Positions 3,401-61,922 are shown, numbered from the stretch's first letter. The stretch is DNA of 64,000 nt from an uncultured Desulfuromonadaceae bacterium (GCA_964397545.1 CAYNIW010000001.1:24714-88713); one strand, 5' to 3'. A program made the numbers and translations. Notes: generated from the letters alone by a model not told the origin.

Positions 3401-4083
3401 AGCTGATGATCCCATCTTATAGATTTAAGACCGCAGTTTAAATCTTCAATACTTTTGATTATTTCATGTGAAAGTTTGTCGGCGGGACCACACTGGAACA
3501 GCTTTAAGTATATTTTAAGCCTGACTGTCTTTTCGGAATAATTTTTTTTCACGCTGAAAGTGATTATCTTCATTCTCTGCTTTTTGAGCGCGTCTATAAG
3601 AACCGAGGGTTCAAAAGTCTCGTCGGTTTCGACTATCAGAAATCTGTATGAATCTTTTGTAAATTTTTTTTCGAGTAAATGCATGAACATGAGGGTTATA
3701 ACAGCGATGGAAGTCGAAAAAAAGGCGAGAGAATAATACCCCGATGCAGTTGCCATCCCTATTCCTGCGGTCACCCAAAGAGAGGCCGCAGTTGTAAGGC
3801 CGCGGACATTGAATCCCTCCTTGAGTATTGTTCCCGCTCCGATGAAACCGATGCCCGTCAAAATCTGCGCCGCTATTCTTGAAGGGTCGGCCAATCCTTT
3901 GAAAACCGGATCCAATGCGATTTTTATTGAAATTATCATAAAAAGAGCGGAGCCCAGGCATACAAGGATATGAGTTCTGAATCCCGCCGCTCTCCCGTGA
4001 ATGTCTCTTTCAATACCAATCAGCGCCCCTAATAAAGAGGCAAGCGCGAGTCTTGCAATATATGATGAAAAATATTCAGGCAT
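3397..4083 (-). CDS. mgtC: MgtC/SapB family membrane protein
   Basis: N-terminal LALASLLGALIGIERD motif typical of the MgtC family; multiple TM helices. Confidence 0.75.
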   Translation of the reverse strand: MPEYFSSYIARLALASLLGALIGIERDIHGRAAGFRTHILVCLGSALFMIISIKIALDPVFKGLADPSRIAAQILTGIGFIGAGTILKEGFNVRGLTTAASLWVTAGIGMATASGYYSLAFFSTSIAVITLMFMHLLEKKFTKDSYRFLIVETDETFEPSVLIDALKKQRMKIITFSVKKNYSEKTVRLKIYLKLFQCGPADKLSHEIIKSIEDLNCGLKSIRWDHQL

Positions 4084-56642: not shown

Positions 56643-58157
56643 TTAGATTTTGTCAATAATAGGATTCATGCTTCCGTCGGAAGGGCAGGAGGAGAGAACT
56701 TCTATCTGCGGCGAAACTTCGTGATCCTCGGGAATAAAAGGCGTCTTTTCTCTGATAAACTCCTGTATGAGCGACGTTCCTCTGCCGAGTTTTTCTCTTT
56801 TCTGACAGAGATCTACTGCCCTTGACGCCGAAAGAAACTCGATGGCAATAATTTTTGATACGAGTTCTGCTGATTCGAGGCATTTAAGTGAAGCGTTTGA
56901 TCCGAAACTGACATGATCCTCTCTCCCTGCAGAGGTGGGTATTGAATCCGAAGAGCAGGGATTTGCCTTGCTTTTGACAAGATTCAGAAGGGATGCGGCG
57001 GTCAGATGGGCTATCATATATCCGGATTCGACACCGGGTTCAGACGCGAGAAATGGAGGCAGTCCGCTTCTTTTGTCGTCGAGTATTAAGTCTATTCTTC
57101 TCTCCGATATTGCCGCTATATTGGAAAGCGCGAGAGAAAGAGAATCCATGGCGAAAGCTATGGGCTGGCCGTGAAAATTACCCCCGGACAGTATTTCGCC
57201 TTCTTCGGGAAAAACTATCGGGTTGTCCGTCACAGAATTTATCTCTACGCAGAGTGTTTTTTCGACGGACGCGAGAGCGTCCTTTAGGACTCCATGGACC
57301 TGCGGCATGCACCTTAAGGAATACGGATCCTGAACTCTGCGGTGGGATTCCGAACCGACGTTGGAACTGCCGCCGATGAACTTCCGGATGTTCTCCGCCG
57401 ATTGCATCTGGCCCGGATACGCTCTGAGCGCATGGATTTTTTGGTCGAAAGCTTCAGGCCTTCCGTCTAAGGCTTCGAGGGTCAAGGCTCCGGACATATC
57501 GCAGGAAAGGGATAAATTTTTCGCCTTGAAGAAAGAGAGGATACCGAGCGCAGTCATGAACTGAGTCCCGTTTAAGAGGGCGAGACCTTCTTTCGCCTTG
57601 AGGACGAGAGGCTTTAGCCCTGTTTTTGAAAAAAAATTTTGAGCCCGTATTTTTTCTCCTCTGAAAAATATCTCTCCCCTTCCGATAAGGCAGAGGGCGA
57701 GATGCGCGAGAGGGGCGAGGTCTCCCGACGCGCCTACCGATCCGAGAGAGGGAACGGCGGGGTAGGCTCTGAAGTTTAGGAAATCTTTGAGAAGCAGGAG
57801 AACATCGGTGCGGACGCCTGAATGGCCTTTTGCCATGACGCAGGCACGCAGAAACATCATCGCCCGGACAGCCTCCTCTGATAAAAGGGGTCCTGTCCCG
57901 CAGGAGTGGGAGAGGACGAGGTTCAGCTGGAGTTTGTCTATCATTGAAGCGGATATCTTTTTCTCGGCCAAAGAACCGAATCCAGTGTTTATGCCGTAAA
58001 CGGATGTCTTTCCTGAAGCGGCTTTCTCGACCGCGGACCTCGCTTTTTTTACTTTTTCAAGCGCGCTTTGGGTTATATCGACTTCAGCCATTCCCATCGA
58101 GACTTTAATCACTTCTTCAAGGGTTGTGTTTTTTTCAGATATAAAGACTTTTTTCAC
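56643..58157 (-). CDS. hutH: Histidine ammonia-lyase
   Basis: MIO-forming Ala-Ser-Gly triad within GSVGASGDLAPLAHLA; 504 aa. Confidence 0.85.
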   Translation of the reverse strand: MKKVFISEKNTTLEEVIKVSMGMAEVDITQSALEKVKKARSAVEKAASGKTSVYGINTGFGSLAEKKISASMIDKLQLNLVLSHSCGTGPLLSEEAVRAMMFLRACVMAKGHSGVRTDVLLLLKDFLNFRAYPAVPSLGSVGASGDLAPLAHLALCLIGRGEIFFRGEKIRAQNFFSKTGLKPLVLKAKEGLALLNGTQFMTALGILSFFKAKNLSLSCDMSGALTLEALDGRPEAFDQKIHALRAYPGQMQSAENIRKFIGGSSNVGSESHRRVQDPYSLRCMPQVHGVLKDALASVEKTLCVEINSVTDNPIVFPEEGEILSGGNFHGQPIAFAMDSLSLALSNIAAISERRIDLILDDKRSGLPPFLASEPGVESGYMIAHLTAASLLNLVKSKANPCSSDSIPTSAGREDHVSFGSNASLKCLESAELVSKIIAIEFLSASRAVDLCQKREKLGRGTSLIQEFIREKTPFIPEDHEVSPQIEVLSSCPSDGSMNPIIDKI

Positions 58158-58494
58158 AAAATCCTCCGTTTAAATGATAAAAAATATTTTATCAAATTAT
58201 CAGACCAAAAGAATACAAAAAACAGAAAAATCCACTGCGAAAGACTATCCGGTGTCATATATCTATACGAATTTAATAAGAAAGGACCAGATATTTTATG
58301 GTTACATAAAAAGCGTAACACGAAGAAAAATAAATTAAAGAAGAGGATTTAACCGCGAATTAACCTAAAAAGAAAATTAATGAATATACAAAATACTTAT
58401 CCAGAAAAGATCTCTTTTCCAAATCTACGTCTCTATAAAAAAAAGCACAGCCGCGCCGCTGACAGCAAACGCATGTAATAAATCGTTTTCTTTA

Positions 58495-59331
58495 TTATAT
58501 CTTTATTTGAAATACAAGAAAATATCCGTTGAAATGATGTTTCAATTTGAATGAAGTAAATATTTTTATTTCTTTTCTTGTAAAAGTTTTGTCCATTTTG
58601 TTTAAAGCAGTTTCCTTGTCAGTTTCAGAATGATATGGTAAAATGAAATTCAAAGTATTATCTGAAATTTCAGGGTATTTTTTTTCATTGAGTATGTTTC
58701 CTTCGGCTTTTACTTCAGTCATAATACGAAATCGAAGCTTCACCGATGCTTTATTAACATTTCTAACTTTGCTAAAATTTTCCTGTTCTGAAAATATTGA
58801 TGTTAACAATTCTTTGATTTTTGGCGTAATTTTTATATGTCTTTCAGTTAATCGTTCATTTAATACCTGTGAAAACGACGAACTGATAAGTTCTCTGGTT
58901 TGTATGGTTTCAAAGAAACTGCCATGAATCAATGCTATTTTTTGAGATGCCTTTTTTTTATTTTTACCTCTAACTAGATAATATACTTCTCTAATAGGTA
59001 ACGAATAAATATTATCTCCTGCGTCAACCATTTGTTGTCTAATGATACTATTTTCACCTTTTATAACTTTTTCAATTTCTTTTTTCCCTGTTGGAATAGT
59101 AGAATTAAATGAAGAAACAGTATAAGTATCGCTATCCTTAAGTTCTATTAACTCTCCACCAGTAAAAAGAGAATTATTAGATGTAAGTCTAATAGCTAAA
59201 TCAGGGAATTGACCTTTGTTTTGACATGATAACAATGAAGTATCAAAAGGAAAATCCTCTAATTTTACAATATTAATAAATTGTTTCTTTTGTAAAACCA
59301 AAGACTTGAAAAAATGATAAATAGAATACAT
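58495..59331 (-). CDS. Candidate Type II restriction endonuclease (PD-(D/E)xK-like), cognate of the adjacent methyltransferase
   Basis: Start overlaps the methyltransferase stop (TAATG); possible PD ... ELK catalytic motif (FPDLA ... GGELIELK); AT-rich codon usage; no other recognisable domain. Confidence 0.4.
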   Translation of the reverse strand: MYSIYHFFKSLVLQKKQFINIVKLEDFPFDTSLLSCQNKGQFPDLAIRLTSNNSLFTGGELIELKDSDTYTVSSFNSTIPTGKKEIEKVIKGENSIIRQQMVDAGDNIYSLPIREVYYLVRGKNKKKASQKIALIHGSFFETIQTRELISSSFSQVLNERLTERHIKITPKIKELLTSIFSEQENFSKVRNVNKASVKLRFRIMTEVKAEGNILNEKKYPEISDNTLNFILPYHSETDKETALNKMDKTFTRKEIKIFTSFKLKHHFNGYFLVFQIKI

Positions 59332-60209
59332 TAGCCGCCAAATAATAATGGTAATTGAGTAGTATTTTTGTTTTGAACTTCAAAATTATCACCCCAAATA
59401 TCATTCAAATTTTCAGTACATATATAATCTTTATAGTACTTTTGAATAAGATCGGATTCTCTTAGATTTTGCAAACGTTCTTTAATACAATTTGCATTTT
59501 CAGGATCAATTTCAATTCCTATTGAATTACGATGAAGTTGATGTGCTACGACTAATGTTGTTCCTGTTCCAGCAAAAGGATCAAAAACAAAATCACCAAC
59601 TTTTGATGACGTTAAAATTATTCGCAATAGTAATGCTATGGGTGCTTGTTGTTTATGCAATCTTTCTCCGCTTTTATTTCTAATTGCTTCATTCCCCGCA
59701 AAATATCCTGAAGTTAATTCCCTGATATCGTCCCAAACATCTGTTACATAAACTCCATTTTCTCGTTGTATTTTGAAACTTGCAGGCAATTCAGGTTCTA
59801 TTCGCAAACGATGAAAGGTATTTACTTTTTCACCTTTGGTTGCATAAACAATTATTTGGAAATGTTTTCCATATTTATTTGCAACTGGTACTGCTGATGT
59901 CTTTTTTTTCCAGACAATCAAATTTTGAAATATCCACCCAGTTTCTCGTAATATTTTTAATACAAATTCCGTATTTTTTTCACGTTGCATAAAATAAATA
60001 GCTCCGCCTATGTTTGTTATTTCATTAACATGTTGGCAAACTTTTTTCATCATTTTCCAGTATTCCTGCTCGCTCATATTATCATTATGAAATGCATAGT
60101 CCTTTTGCTGATTAAAAGGAGGATCTAAAAAAGTCAAATCAACATTTTGAGAAATCATTTTTTTCTCAAATGCGATTAAGCAATCATTATTTATTATTGT
60201 GAAATTCAT
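59331..60209 (-). CDS. Site-specific DNA methyltransferase, beta-class amino-methyltransferase (N6-adenine or N4-cytosine)
   Basis: Motif IV DPPF near the N-terminus and motif I FDPFAGTGTT near the C-terminus; that order defines the beta class. Confidence 0.75.
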   Translation of the reverse strand: MNFTIINNDCLIAFEKKMISQNVDLTFLDPPFNQQKDYAFHNDNMSEQEYWKMMKKVCQHVNEITNIGGAIYFMQREKNTEFVLKILRETGWIFQNLIVWKKKTSAVPVANKYGKHFQIIVYATKGEKVNTFHRLRIEPELPASFKIQRENGVYVTDVWDDIRELTSGYFAGNEAIRNKSGERLHKQQAPIALLLRIILTSSKVGDFVFDPFAGTGTTLVVAHQLHRNSIGIEIDPENANCIKERLQNLRESDLIQKYYKDYICTENLNDIWGDNFEVQNKNTTQLPLLFGG

Positions 60210-60439
60210 AATTGTTTATTTTAAGAACAGGTGACGATTTATTTTTTTTGAATTGTTGAAATAATAAACAGTAAAGAAATGATTAGGCATTTCACCTTCC
60301 TTGTAGTTTATAAAGAGAATAATAGAACCAAGACAAACACAAGTCAAATAAGGATTTTACTGTTTAATCCTCGCTAACCATAACTTGTTTTTTTAATTTC
60401 GGAATATGTTATTACTAGATTTGACTCAGGATTTTAACA

Positions 60440-60483
60440 TCTCATCGAGGAGAATTGACAAAATCTGTCAATAGTCAAGACCA
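60440..60483. repeat. 44-bp imperfect direct repeat, copy A (flanks the brnTA cassette)
   Basis: atctcatcgaggagaattgacaaaatctgtcaatagtcaagacc; about 84 percent identical to copy B at 61162-61205 in the same orientation. Confidence 0.6.
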
Positions 60484-60492
60484 GAAAAAATA

Positions 60493-60750
60493 TTACTGTC
60501 TGACTTGATAATGCAAAGTATATTTATCGAGAACCGTTTTTATCATTGTCTGATATGGAACCCCTGCTTTCTTTGCTTTCCTTTTAAAAAAATCTATGCT
60601 TTTTTTACTTAATAGAATTGTAATCTTAACGGTTTCTTCTTTTTTAACCAAATTTTCCGGCGCCGGAAGAAAATCTTCTATTACTTCAGAAGCAAGAACC
60701 GCTTCAGATACATATTTTGGGGCTTTTTTATATGTTATTTTTTTCTTCAT
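60493..60750 (-). CDS. brnA: BrnA-family antitoxin (DUF4415-like)
   Basis: 85 aa; C-terminal ...SIDFFKRKAKKAGVPYQTMIKTVLDKY fits the BrnA signature; immediately downstream of, and overlapping, a BrnT-like reading frame. Confidence 0.65.
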   Translation of the reverse strand: MKKKITYKKAPKYVSEAVLASEVIEDFLPAPENLVKKEETVKITILLSKKSIDFFKRKAKKAGVPYQTMIKTVLDKYTLHYQVRQ

Positions 60751-61006
60751 GCTTTTTTCTCCCTTCTCTCCAATATCCCGCTCCGAATATCCTGATTTTT
60801 TGATCCCTTATTGTAAATCTGACAGTTAAAATATCATTATCAATTTTTCCAAAACAGAAATATCTTTTTTCTCTTTTCGTTGAATGTTTTATATCAAGTG
60901 TTATTACTCTTTTTATATCAAAAAAAGCATTTTGAGCTTAAGAAAATGAAATTCCATGTTTTTGAATGTTTTCAATGTTTTTTACATCATCCCATTCAAA
61001 CTGCAT
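60728..61006 (-). pseudogene. brnT: BrnT-family toxin (DUF497-like) interrupted by an in-frame TAA at codon 23
   Basis: Manual translation of the minus strand gives MQFEWDDVKNIENIQKHGISFS*AQNAFFDIKRVITLDIKHSTKREKRYFCFGKIDNDILTVRFTIRDQKIRIFGAGYWREGRKKHEEKNNI, which fits the BrnT pattern across the stop (plus-strand tta at 60938-60940). Confidence 0.55.
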
Positions 61007-61161
61007 AATGACTAATATACATAATAAATACCATATATCAATACATATTTAATTTAAAAAACAATAAAAAATGTAATTTTAAATTGCGTCCAGCAATTTC
61101 AAAGGCTGTGTAGCTTTACGAGTTTAATATGAGAAGATATTCAACAAAACGGTTTATCATT

Positions 61162-61205
61162 ATCTCGTCGAGGGGAATCGTCAGAATCTGTCAAATGTCA
61201 AGACC
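61162..61205. repeat. 44-bp imperfect direct repeat, copy B (flanks the brnTA cassette)
   Basis: atctcgtcgaggggaatcgtcagaatctgtcaaatgtcaagacc; pairs with copy A at 60440-60483. Confidence 0.6.
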
Positions 61206-61275
61206 TGGCACCTAATCATAAATGTGATTTGTTAATTTAAAATTTTAAGATAAGAAAATTTAAACCACAAAGGTT

Positions 61276-61547
61276 TACTTATTTACCAAAGTAAAAAATC
61301 TTATTTACCTAAGTAAATAAGAGAGCTACAGGAAGGAGTAAATCATAAATGATTTTAATCTTATTTGCCTTCGGCAATTAAGAGAGCTACAAGAAGTAAA
61401 ACCAAAACTCACAAATTTCTTTTATTCACTTCGTGAAGGAAAAATGTATTCATTTTTCCCTTCGTGAAGGGATAAAGCAACGATTTATCCCGCTTCGTGG
61501 TGGAAATTGTATTTGTATTTATTATTAAGAAAAGATATCCACCGCGA
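61276..61547. repeat. Repeat- and hairpin-rich non-coding region: about 61-bp tandem duplication plus three consecutive perfect stem-loops
   Basis: Tandem units aatcttatttacctaagtaaataagagagctacagg... and aatcttatttgccttcggcaattaagagagctacaag...; hairpins at about 61438-61459, 61469-61491 and 61529-61547; recurring cttcgtgaagg motif. Confidence 0.5.
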
Positions 61548-61583
61548 AGGGCGGTGGTAGAAATATTCTTTGTCTTTTTTTCT

Positions 61584-61922
61584 TCAGCAGGTCAGATGTA
61601 AGGCGGCGGCGGTTTTGTGTTTTTCCGATATTTCGTTGAACTTAGCCGCGGCTGAAACTGAATAGAAAACTAAAACTTCACAGCCGAGAGAGGAGAATTG
61701 GTCGAAAACCGATCTTTCGACTTTCATCATGCCGAAAAAACCAGTGCCTATGACGAGAAACTCGGGGCTGTAATCTTTTACTTCCCTGAGGTCTTGGACC
61801 GATAGAAAATGCCCTTTTTCGCGGATCCAGGGGCAAATAACCTTCTCTCCGAGAATAAGTAAGTCCTTTACGTAAGTTTTTTTGTCAACTGTGATTTTCC
61901 CGAATGAATAGTCCTCTATCAT
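61584..61922 (-). CDS. Mth938-like domain protein (DUF498 family)
   Basis: 112 aa ending ...AAALHLTC with the pattern typical of Mth938-like proteins. Confidence 0.6.
   Translation of the reverse strand: MIEDYSFGKITVDKKTYVKDLLILGEKVICPWIREKGHFLSVQDLREVKDYSPEFLVIGTGFFGMMKVERSVFDQFSSLGCEVLVFYSVSAAAKFNEISEKHKTAAALHLTC

What the first reader, a model, noticed from the sequence alone, without database searches (positions are those of the whole stretch)
60440..61205. 44-bp imperfect direct repeats bracket the brnTA cassette
Copy A (60440-60483) lies 10 bp beyond the brnA stop and copy B (61162-61205) about 155 bp upstream of the brnT start, same orientation, about 37 of 44 positions identical. Direct repeats delimiting a single small cassette suggest site-specific insertion or excision, for example an integron-like gene cassette or a recombinase target. 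Alternatively they could be operator sites shared by two promoters.
Basis: seen in the sequence. Interest (0 to 1): 0.55.

Follow-up and report, generated by a model that had tools for sequence, protein, structure and literature searches.

The report
Conserved repeat bracketing portable brnTA unit
Two real 44-bp direct repeats flank a decayed toxin-antitoxin pair inside a patch of foreign DNA, and they carry a rare, undescribed short DNA motif that also sits at the edges of small portable gene modules in unrelated bacteria, so they are most likely a module-joining site rather than an integron attC or an operator.

Summary
The repeat is real: 60439-60482 and 61162-61205, 37/44 identical, the only two copies in 64 kb (0 of 100 shuffles). 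Both lie in a 3.4-kb low-GC mosaic island.

Copy B is the outer end of a ~710-bp unit (B, promoter, brnT, brnA). That unit recurs at ~85% nucleotide identity in a WOR-3 MAG at an unrelated locus. There it is again followed by a repeat-like copy just after the brnA stop.

The repeat core, GGTCTTGAC-NN-TTGACAGATT, recurs in a few metagenomic loci from other phyla. In one it brackets an MNT-HEPN pair. In another it occurs in several copies next to transposase genes.

Three readings failed their tests:
- **Integron attC:** no R''/R' boxes, no conserved fold.
- **Xer/pdif site:** wrong architecture and orientation.
- **brnTA operator:** a separate proximal promoter is conserved in homologs that lack the repeat.

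My best reading (about 0.4) is a duplex-DNA junction or recombination site of small accessory modules, now a relic. brnT is a pseudogene and no recombinase lies nearby. The enzyme is unknown, the family is small, and no empty-site allele could be found.

The adjacent R-M pair is a captured integron cassette.

The parts
60439..60482 (+). Repeat copy A ('S element'). Read on the minus strand it is GGTCTTGACTATTGACAGATTTTGTCAATTCTCCTCGATGAGAT. It starts 10 nt after the brnA stop and contains a local palindrome TTGACA-N5-TGTCAA.
   Evidence: Its best match in L027 is S2.
61162..61205 (+). Repeat copy B. Minus-strand reading: GGTCTTGACATTTGACAGATTCTGACGATTCCCCTCGACGAGAT. It is the outer (5') end of the portable brnTA unit. 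The adjoining 61206-61215 (TAGGTGCCAG on the minus strand) matches the flank of the S1 and S3' copies in L027.
60493..60750 (-). brnA antitoxin gene, intact, 85 aa
60728..61006 (-). brnT toxin pseudogene, with an in-frame TAA at codon 23 (60938-60940)
61014..61041 (-). Proximal brnTA promoter (TTGATA-16-TATATT), embedded in an ATATGTAT repeat motif that is conserved in brnTA homologs
60493..61205 (-). Portable unit (copy B, leader, promoter, brnT, brnA), shared with WOR-3 MAG contig JAFGIG010000050.1 (L027 3548-4251). Homology stops at both edges.
60245..60438 (.). 194-nt filler between copy A and the R-M cassette. It has no homolog and no attC-like fold, and it carries a sigma-70-like site at 60319-60347 on the minus strand.
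58416..60244 (-). R-M module (MTase 59331-60209; 278-aa putative REase 58495-59331). It is ~90% nt identical to an integron gene cassette in L034-L040.
58416..58492 (-). Left (R''-L'') half of the R-M cassette's attC, with a mutated R'' (TTATTAC). The right half is missing.
61206..61583 (.). Hairpin-rich non-coding stretch of the island. It includes the DUF498 terminator (61539-61557) and CACGAAG units. 61493-61535 matches L027 4317-4359, which lies on the other side of brnTA.
58158..61583 (.). Low-GC (29-35%) mosaic island between hutH and the DUF498 gene, in a 42-52% GC background

Best explanation
Copies A and B are two members of an undescribed short non-coding DNA element, here called S. 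Read on the minus strand, its core is two tandem TCTTGAC-like heptamers followed by AGATT (GGTCTTGAC-NN-TTGACAGATT). In the window copies this is followed, after 13-17 nt, by a CCTCGA box.

Shown: S is conserved as primary sequence and not as a fold. Copy B is the terminal segment of a ~710-bp portable brnTA unit, and copy A is a second S that abuts the other end of that unit. S-core copies occur at the edges of other small accessory modules in unrelated organisms.

Inferred: S is the duplex-DNA site at which such modules are joined to one another or to the chromosome. That is, it is a recombination or end site read by a recombinase or transposase encoded elsewhere, so that integration at a resident S leaves the module bracketed by two S copies in direct orientation. 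The window locus is a fossil of this process: brnT is dead, copy B has lost the small palindrome that copy A keeps, and no recombinase gene lies within about 8 kb.
For: 1. The repeat is real and unique to this island.
2. The island is foreign and mosaic. GC falls from ~45% to ~30% over 58.16-61.58 kb, and its R-M part is a separately mobile integron cassette.
3. blastn homology to WOR-3 contig L027 runs from window 61205, the first base of copy B, to 60500, just before the brnA stop. Flanking genes are unrelated. Identity by segment: upstream of B 51%, B 73%, leader 69%, promoter 79%, brnT 92%, brnA 89%, after the stop 55-60%.
4. In L027 the unit is again followed by an S-like copy, S3', 15 nt after the brnA stop, and another copy, S1, sits directly after hsdR. 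B plus its flank matches S1 and A matches S2, each with 0 of 300 shuffles reaching the score.
5. There are signs of circular permutation. TAGGTGCCAG lies 5' of the unit in the window but 3' of it in L027, and window 61493-61535 equals L027 4317-4359 on the opposite side of brnTA.
6. Bracketing recurs elsewhere. In L023 an MNT-HEPN pair lies between two direct S-core copies 870 nt apart (0 of 300 shuffles). In L026 there are three full and two partial copies in 4.3 kb: an inverted doublet, a 29-nt inverted pair enclosing an IS1182 transposase, and 62-nt direct repeats around a TonB_C gene.
7. Hits from the collection scans share bases the search pattern did not impose: NN = TC in 5 of 8 independent loci, a GTCA extension in 4, and a CCCCTCGA..AGAT box in Aminicenantes locus L019 (p about 0.005-0.03).
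8. Primary-sequence conservation without structure fits a protein-bound duplex site.
Against: - No recombinase or transposase lies near the window locus (Pfam columns), and none is consistently near other S copies.
- No excision product, empty site or variable allele was found.
- The family is tiny. The raw number of collection hits (3 and 7) is about what 19 fixed bases give by chance, and several hits are chance matches inside coding sequences (L017, L022, L047).
- Outside the imposed core, only L019 resembles the window copies significantly.
- Between the window and L027, S is less conserved (73%) than the genes (89-92%), so it is not under visible constraint there.
- Four other brnTA homolog loci (71-78% aa identity) and the R-M cassette in its other contexts carry no S.
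- S orientation relative to the bracketed genes differs between the window and L023.
Confidence: 0.4

Rival explanations
1. S is a REP/REPIN-like or MITE-like selfish repeat. It spreads on its own, moved by a Y1 (RAYT-type) or other transposase, into intergenic DNA just after genes. On this view its two copies around brnTA are incidental passengers of the foreign DNA and not the sites that moved the cassette.
For: L026 has about one copy per kb, including an inverted doublet with a 31-nt spacer that folds strongly (z = -4.2 as RNA, -4.7 as DNA). One copy lies 25 nt upstream of an ORF starting MPRPLRVEFPGGCYHVINRGN..., which resembles IS200-like/RAYT N-termini. That resemblance is my recollection only and was not confirmed. 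S copies often sit within 0-20 nt of a stop codon, in either orientation.
Against: There are only two copies in 64 kb of this genome, both inside the island. Single copies do not fold. There is no conserved 5' GTAG-type guide plus hairpin. The window/L027 homology edge coincides with the S edge, which independent insertions would not predict. The 45-aa ORF fragment matched nothing in Pfam, NCBIfam or PDB.
Confidence: 0.22
2. S is a regulatory site, either an operator or an unusual promoter, reused in front of two transcription units (brnTA and the R-M genes).
For: On the minus strand both copies lie upstream of genes (155 nt before brnT, 229 nt before the MTase). The core contains two overlapping TTGAC(A/T) -35-like hexamers. 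In L026 a copy ends 29 nt before an ORF start.
Against: No -10 element lies at a usable spacing in any copy, and the promoter scan finds none in S. brnTA's promoter/operator is proximal and is conserved in homologs that lack S. The R-M cassette starts at 60244 and carries no S in its other contexts. In L018, L019 and L023, S faces the 3' end of a convergent gene.
Confidence: 0.12
3. The repeats are integron attC sites, or decayed ones, so that brnTA is an ordinary integron gene cassette.
For: The neighbouring R-M pair is a true integron cassette. TA pairs are common integron cassettes, often in reverse orientation (my background knowledge). ATTCAAC lies about 20 nt from copy B and is conserved in L027. 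S-bearing segments in L020 and L023 end in ..AAC/GTT...
Against: There is no RYYYAAC...GTTRRRY pair in the three intergenic regions. Copy B folds worse than shuffles (z = +1.35 and +1.57), and copy A is not significant. Nine copies share no fold and no covariation. L019, L020 and L023 segments do not fold significantly. Conservation lies in the centre and not in the R boxes. No intI is nearby.
Confidence: 0.07
4. The repeat is a one-off local duplication, for example a target duplication or slippage, or a chance similarity with no wider meaning.
For: There are only two copies, and the wider family is small.
Against: 0 of 100 shuffles give any match. The positional homolog of copy B exists in another genome together with two further S-like copies. 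The core recurs in multi-copy form in L023 and L026.
Confidence: 0.05

Closest known systems
Integron gene cassettes and attC sites
   Same: Small one- or two-gene modules (often TA pairs) hug a short repeat at their boundary. Repeats are in direct orientation along an array. A real integron cassette (R-M) sits next door.
   Different: attC is recognised as a folded single strand with R''/R' boxes (RYYYAAC/GTTRRRY) and a variable centre. S has no R boxes and no conserved fold, and it is conserved in its centre as plain sequence.
Acinetobacter pdif (XerC/XerD) modules
   Same: These are discrete modules, among them BrnT/BrnA and other TA pairs, delimited by short recombination sites and moved by a recombinase encoded elsewhere (PMC7530245).
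   Different: pdif sites are 28 bp (11-6-11) and flank modules in inverse orientation. S is ~44 bp, in direct orientation, and has no 11-6-11 dyad. The only dyad (7-5-7 in copy A) is lost in copy B.
REP/REPIN elements with RAYT transposases
   Same: Both are short intergenic repeats lying close to gene ends. There is an inverted doublet in L026, possibly next to a Y1-type transposase gene.
   Different: REPs are hairpins and occur at tens to hundreds of copies per genome. S singlets do not fold and occur twice in 64 kb, only inside foreign DNA.
Transposon ends or res sites built of repeated recombinase-binding motifs (Tn3-family res beside TA genes, Tn7/Tn402-type ends)
   Same: S is a cluster of 3-4 GTCA(A/G)/TGAC motifs within about 45 bp and is conserved as duplex sequence. 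In L026 a 29-nt inverted pair encloses 3.5 kb that includes a transposase.
   Different: There is no sequence match to any end or res site I could recall. The window copies are direct and not inverted. No cognate enzyme is present. This comparison rests on memory and was not tested.

Membership tests
Integron attC | Complementary R'' (RYYYAAC) and R' (GTTRRRY) boxes 50-150 nt apart | tested here: not met
   A regex scan of 58100-58520, 60190-60520 and 60990-61600 on both strands found 0 candidates.
Integron attC | Imperfect hairpin of the single strand (bottom strand), more stable than chance | tested here: not met
   Copy B z = +1.35 and +1.57; copy A z = -1.5 and -0.9. The alifold consensus over 9 copies is -0.53 kcal/mol with no covariation. 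A true attC from L035 gives z = -3.2 and -4.8 by the same method.
Integron attC | Integron integrase (intI) and attI nearby, or an array of several attC sites (CALIN) | tested here: not met
   Precomputed Pfam for about 8 kb on each side shows no recombinase. Only a half attC remnant is present, at 58416-58492.
Xer/pdif module | 28-bp site with two 11-bp inverted arms and a 6-bp spacer | tested here: not met
   By inspection, the only dyad is TTGACA-N5-TGTCAA in copy A. Copy B has TCGTCA..TGTCAA.
Xer/pdif module | Flanking sites in inverse orientation | tested here: not met
   Copies A and B are direct repeats. The definition is from PMC7530245.
REP/REPIN | High copy number dispersed in the host genome | tested here: not met
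   Two copies in the 64-kb window, both in the island. The rest of the genome was not available.
REP/REPIN | Each unit is an imperfect palindrome, and the mobile form is an inverted doublet | tested here: inconclusive
   Singlets do not fold. One doublet in L026 folds with z = -4.7.
REP/REPIN | Cognate RAYT (Y1 transposase) gene flanked by the repeat | tested here: inconclusive
   None in the window. The 45-aa ORF start beside an S copy in L026 gave no Pfam, NCBIfam or PDB hit.
TIR transposon / MITE | Terminal inverted repeats with a target-site duplication | tested here: not met
   The window copies are direct. No island-scale inverted repeat of note was found.
Described structured RNA (Rfam) | Match to a covariance model | tested here: not met
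   No hit at gathering score in the window. There is nothing over the repeats at E <= 10 or in 7 related loci.
brnTA operator | Site conserved with the operon's promoter across homologs | tested here: not met
   The proximal ATATGTAT..TTGAYA..TATATT region is conserved in L027, L041 and L042. S is absent from L029-L033, L041 and L042.

The most novel reading that the evidence does not exclude
S defines a previously unrecognised, cross-phylum gene-cassette system. Small accessory modules (TA pairs, defence and membrane genes) would be exchanged between genomes through a sequence-specific duplex site built of tandem TCTTGAC heptamers. This site would be read by a still unidentified recombinase. 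The system would be functionally parallel to integrons and pdif modules but mechanistically distinct.
Probability: 0.15. Interest if true: 0.8.

Novelty: new variant of a known kind. Interest (0 to 1): 0.5.

Why it matters
Toxin-antitoxin and restriction-modification genes move between distant bacteria as tiny modules. Outside integrons and Xer/pdif systems, the sites and enzymes that move them are mostly unknown. S is a short motif that marks module edges in uncultivated phyla (a WOR-3-like genome, Aminicenantes, soil bacteria). It fails the tests for both known site types, so it gives a concrete sequence handle for looking for another such system. If S turns out to be only a decaying repeat, the locus is still a clear example of a defence islet assembled from parts of different origin: a captured integron R-M cassette beside a portable brnTA unit whose toxin has died twice independently.

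Tried and rejected
- **attC:** an R-box regex, single-strand folds and a consensus fold were all negative. A candidate attC at 60268-60417 does not fold. My looser attC scan was too noisy to use.
- **Structured RNA or tRNA fragment:** Rfam at gathering score and at E <= 10 gave nothing relevant, ARAGORN found nothing, and E. coli genomes gave no match.
- **Sigma-70 promoter or terminator within S:** none found.
- **Coding explanation:** the core can read SVKSQDL or ..GLDx*. This holds only for chance hits inside real genes (a sigma factor in L017, a phage polymerase in L047) and not for the intergenic copies.
- **Phage or plasmid origin:** three viral-contig scans gave only one in-CDS chance hit. 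PLSDB and phage BLAST gave nothing meaningful.
- **Literature:** no paper contains the 15-mers.
- **Empty-site or variable alleles:**
  - All 16 retrieved Logan contigs of this population are 100% identical to the window over the stretch they share with it.
  - The nearest DUF498 homolog is 60% identical and sits on a 909-bp contig. More distant homologs show no synteny.
- **S as a general 5' leader of every module:** rejected, because the R-M cassette elsewhere lacks S.
- **Island-level terminal inverted repeats:** none convincing.
- **Naming the source organism:** failed, as the exact-protein look-up returned no names.

Full report
**Observation**

The window holds one 44-nt direct-repeat pair, 60439-60482 (copy A) and 61162-61205 (copy B). 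They are 37/44 identical and 723 nt apart.
- A degenerate 44-mer covering both copies matches nowhere else in the 64 kb, even with three mismatches allowed. It matches nothing in 100 shuffles.
- A profile HMM and a local-alignment scan also find no third copy.
- Similarity ends at the 44 nt.
Everything else is as described.

On the minus strand the order is: DUF498 gene, 378 nt of non-coding DNA, copy B, 155 nt, brnT, brnA, 10 nt, copy A, 229 nt, MTase, putative REase, hutH. Pfam confirms BrnT and BrnA. However, brnT carries an in-frame TAA at codon 23.

**Setting**

GC content drops from 42-52% to 29-35% between about 58.16 and 61.58 kb. The repeats therefore lie in a small foreign island between two housekeeping genes. 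About 8 kb on either side contains no integrase, transposase or other recombinase (precomputed Pfam). I retrieved 16 contigs of the same population; each is 100% identical to the window over the stretch it shares with it.

**What the repeats are not**

- **No known RNA.** There is no Rfam family at gathering score or at E <= 10, and no tRNA.
- **No attC-like fold.** As single-stranded DNA, copy B folds worse than shuffled sequence (z = +1.35 and +1.57). Copy A is unremarkable (z = -1.5 and -0.9).
- **No R boxes.** No RYYYAAC...GTTRRRY pair exists in any of the three intergenic regions.
- **No pdif architecture.** pdif sites have an 11-6-11 dyad and flank modules in inverse orientation (PMC7530245). 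Neither feature is present here.
- **Not the brnTA operator.**
  - The operon has a proximal TTGATA-16-TATATT promoter inside an ATATGTAT repeat motif.
  - That region is conserved in brnTA homologs, whether or not they carry the repeat.
  - The promoter/terminator scan finds nothing inside either copy.

**The portable unit**

The closest BrnA homolog (84% aa) is in a candidate division WOR-3 MAG. It sits on contig L027, between a type I hsdR gene and unrelated genes.

blastn homology to the window runs from 61205, the first base of copy B, to 60500, just before the brnA stop. It stops at both ends. Identity by segment:

| Segment | Identity |
|---|---|
| Upstream of B | 51% |
| Copy B | 73% |
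| Leader | 69% |
| Promoter | 79% |
| brnT | 92% |
| brnA | 89% |
| After the brnA stop | 55-60% |

Copy B is thus the terminal part of a ~710-bp unit that exists in two unrelated genomic contexts.

In L027 the unit's own copy (S2) is accompanied by two more S-like copies:
- S1 lies directly after the hsdR stop.
- S3' is truncated and lies 15 nt after the brnA stop, the position copy A has in the window.
- Window B plus its flank matches S1, and window A matches S2, each with 0 of 300 shuffles reaching the score.

Two details look like circular permutation:
- The decamer TAGGTGCCAG lies 5' of the unit in the window and 3' of it in L027.
- Window 61493-61535 matches L027 4317-4359 (91%) on the opposite side of brnTA.

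Copy A and S2 keep a small palindrome through a two-sided change (TTGACA/TGTCAA versus TGACGG/CCGTCA). Copy B and S1 have lost it.

brnT is also inactivated in L027, by an independent 1-nt deletion.

**The wider family, with caveats**

I made one exact-pattern scan each of the genome and metagenome collections, using the 19 bases shared by A and B (AATCTGTCAANNGTCAAGACC). This returned 3 and 7 loci.

That count is about what chance predicts for 19 fixed bases. This is my estimate: 4^19 against roughly 1.2e12 positions. Several hits are chance matches inside genes (L017, probably L022 and L025, and L047 from a viral scan).

The case for a real family rests on features the pattern did not impose:
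- NN is TC in 5 of 8 independent loci, which makes a perfect tandem TCTTGAC-TCTTGAC.
- Four loci share a GTCA extension.
- L026 carries three full and two partial copies in 4.3 kb.
- L023 carries a second, degenerate copy (0 of 300 shuffles).
- The Aminicenantes locus L019 also shares the downstream CCCCTCGA..AGAT box with the window copies (p about 0.005-0.03).

For L018, L020, L023 and L026 only the ~21-nt core is shared with the window.

Contexts of these loci:
- **L023:** the two direct copies lie about 60 nt upstream of the likely MNT start and about 50 nt downstream of the HEPN stop, bracketing a TA pair of a different family.
- **L026:**
  - An inverted doublet has a 31-nt spacer (z = -4.7).
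  - A 29-nt inverted pair encloses a TonB_C gene, an IS1182 transposase and a DoxX gene.
  - A 62-nt direct repeat, beginning with the S 5' part, flanks the TonB_C gene.
  - One copy lies 25 nt upstream of an ORF start that I think resembles Y1/RAYT transposases. It matched no library.
- **L018 and L019:** S sits within 0-20 nt of a stop codon.

Nine copies share no secondary structure (-0.53 kcal/mol, no covarying pair). No paper, plasmid, phage or E. coli genome contains the motif.

**The neighbouring R-M pair**

The MTase has 89-92% aa homologs. At the DNA level, window 60244-58416 is ~90% identical to loci L034-L040, which carry no S.

In those loci the R-M pair is a textbook integron cassette:
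- The upstream sequences differ from contig to contig, but all end ..ACCG|TTATAAGCC.
- Each upstream site begins GCCCATAAC about 135 nt earlier.
- The cassette's own 135-nt attC (TTATAAC...GTTATGG) folds with z = -3.2 and -4.8.

The window keeps only the left half of that attC (58416-58492), with a mutated R''. The 194 nt between copy A and the cassette match nothing and do not fold.

So the island is a mosaic of at least two independently mobile parts. S does not belong to the R-M part.

**Interpretation**

Shown:
- A and B are genuine copies of a short element conserved as sequence and not as a fold.
- B is the end of a portable brnTA unit.
- A second S abuts the other end, both here and in the WOR-3 contig.
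- Core copies bracket or adjoin other small accessory modules elsewhere.

Inferred: S is a duplex-DNA joining site (att-like or end-like) used by an enzyme encoded elsewhere. Integration of an S-bearing module at a resident S would leave two direct copies. I give this about 0.4.

Rivals:

| Rival | Confidence | Main point |
|---|---|---|
| Self-propagating REP/MITE-like repeat | 0.22 | Favoured by L026. Disfavoured by the lack of hairpins, the low copy number here, and the coincidence of the homology edge with the S edge. |
| Regulatory site | 0.12 | Both copies lie upstream of genes, but no -10 element is present and brnTA has its own promoter. |
| Decayed attC | 0.07 | The neighbour is an integron cassette, but S fails the R-box and fold tests. 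|
| Meaningless local duplication | 0.05 | Largely refuted. |

Main weaknesses:
- The family is small.
- No cognate enzyme has been identified.
- No excision or empty-site evidence exists.
- S is no better conserved than the surrounding non-coding DNA between the two brnTA loci.

**Verdict**

The cassette idea is supported in outline. The specific attC and operator mechanisms are not supported. The element fits no described family that I could test. I class it as a new variant of a known kind (a module-boundary repeat), of moderate interest, and it needs a proper profile-based census before more can be claimed.

Noticed in passing
window 60728-61006 (minus strand), stop at 60938-60940; L027 about 3747-4023: brnT is a pseudogene, with GAA changed to TAA at codon 23. 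The WOR-3 homolog keeps GAA but has an independent 1-nt deletion 20 nt upstream. brnA is intact in both, so the toxin was lost twice and the antitoxin was kept.
   Followed up: yes
window 58416-60244; L034-L040: The MTase/REase pair is about 90% nt identical to a genuine integron gene cassette seen behind at least five different upstream cassettes. That cassette has a 135-nt attC (TTATAAC...GTTATGG). The window retains only the left attC half (58416-58492), which now scores as a terminator.
   Followed up: yes
window 58495-59331 (minus strand): The 278-aa ORF, translationally coupled to the MTase (presumed restriction endonuclease), has no Pfam or NCBIfam match.
   Followed up: partly
window 58158-61583: A low-GC (29-35%) islet sits in a 42-52% GC genome, between hutH and a DUF498 gene. 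It is assembled from at least three unrelated pieces.
   Followed up: partly
window 61278-61560; L027 3440-3540 and 4300-4440: A dense run of short hairpins with CTTCGTG/CACGAAG cores (three CACGAAG within 70 nt) and UUCG-type loops. There is no Rfam hit and no tandem period. Window 61493-61535 recurs in L027 on the other side of brnTA.
   Followed up: partly
window 61014-61050; L027 3700-3745; L041 about 185-230; L042 about 2360-2400: A conserved brnTA promoter region, ATATGTATTGA(C/T)ATATGG...ATATGTATA, has repeated ATATGTAT units. It is a likely BrnA operator.
   Followed up: partly
L026 811-872 and 1701-1762; 592-620 and 4166-4194; 4222-4355: 62-nt direct repeats (95% identical) flank a TonB_C gene. 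A 29-nt inverted S pair encloses 3.5 kb that includes an IS1182 transposase. An ORF start resembling Y1/RAYT transposases lies right after an S copy at the contig end.
   Followed up: partly
L020 1-31 and 179-209: 31-nt direct repeats (about 87% identical) flank the roughly 150-nt segment that carries the S copy, downstream of an outer-membrane-like gene.
   Followed up: no
L019 3514-5100: The gene just downstream of the Aminicenantes S copy encodes a 528-aa SEC-C-motif protein. Its C-terminus weakly matches the Xre/ParS antitoxin domain (E = 2.8e-5), another possible TA link.
   Followed up: no
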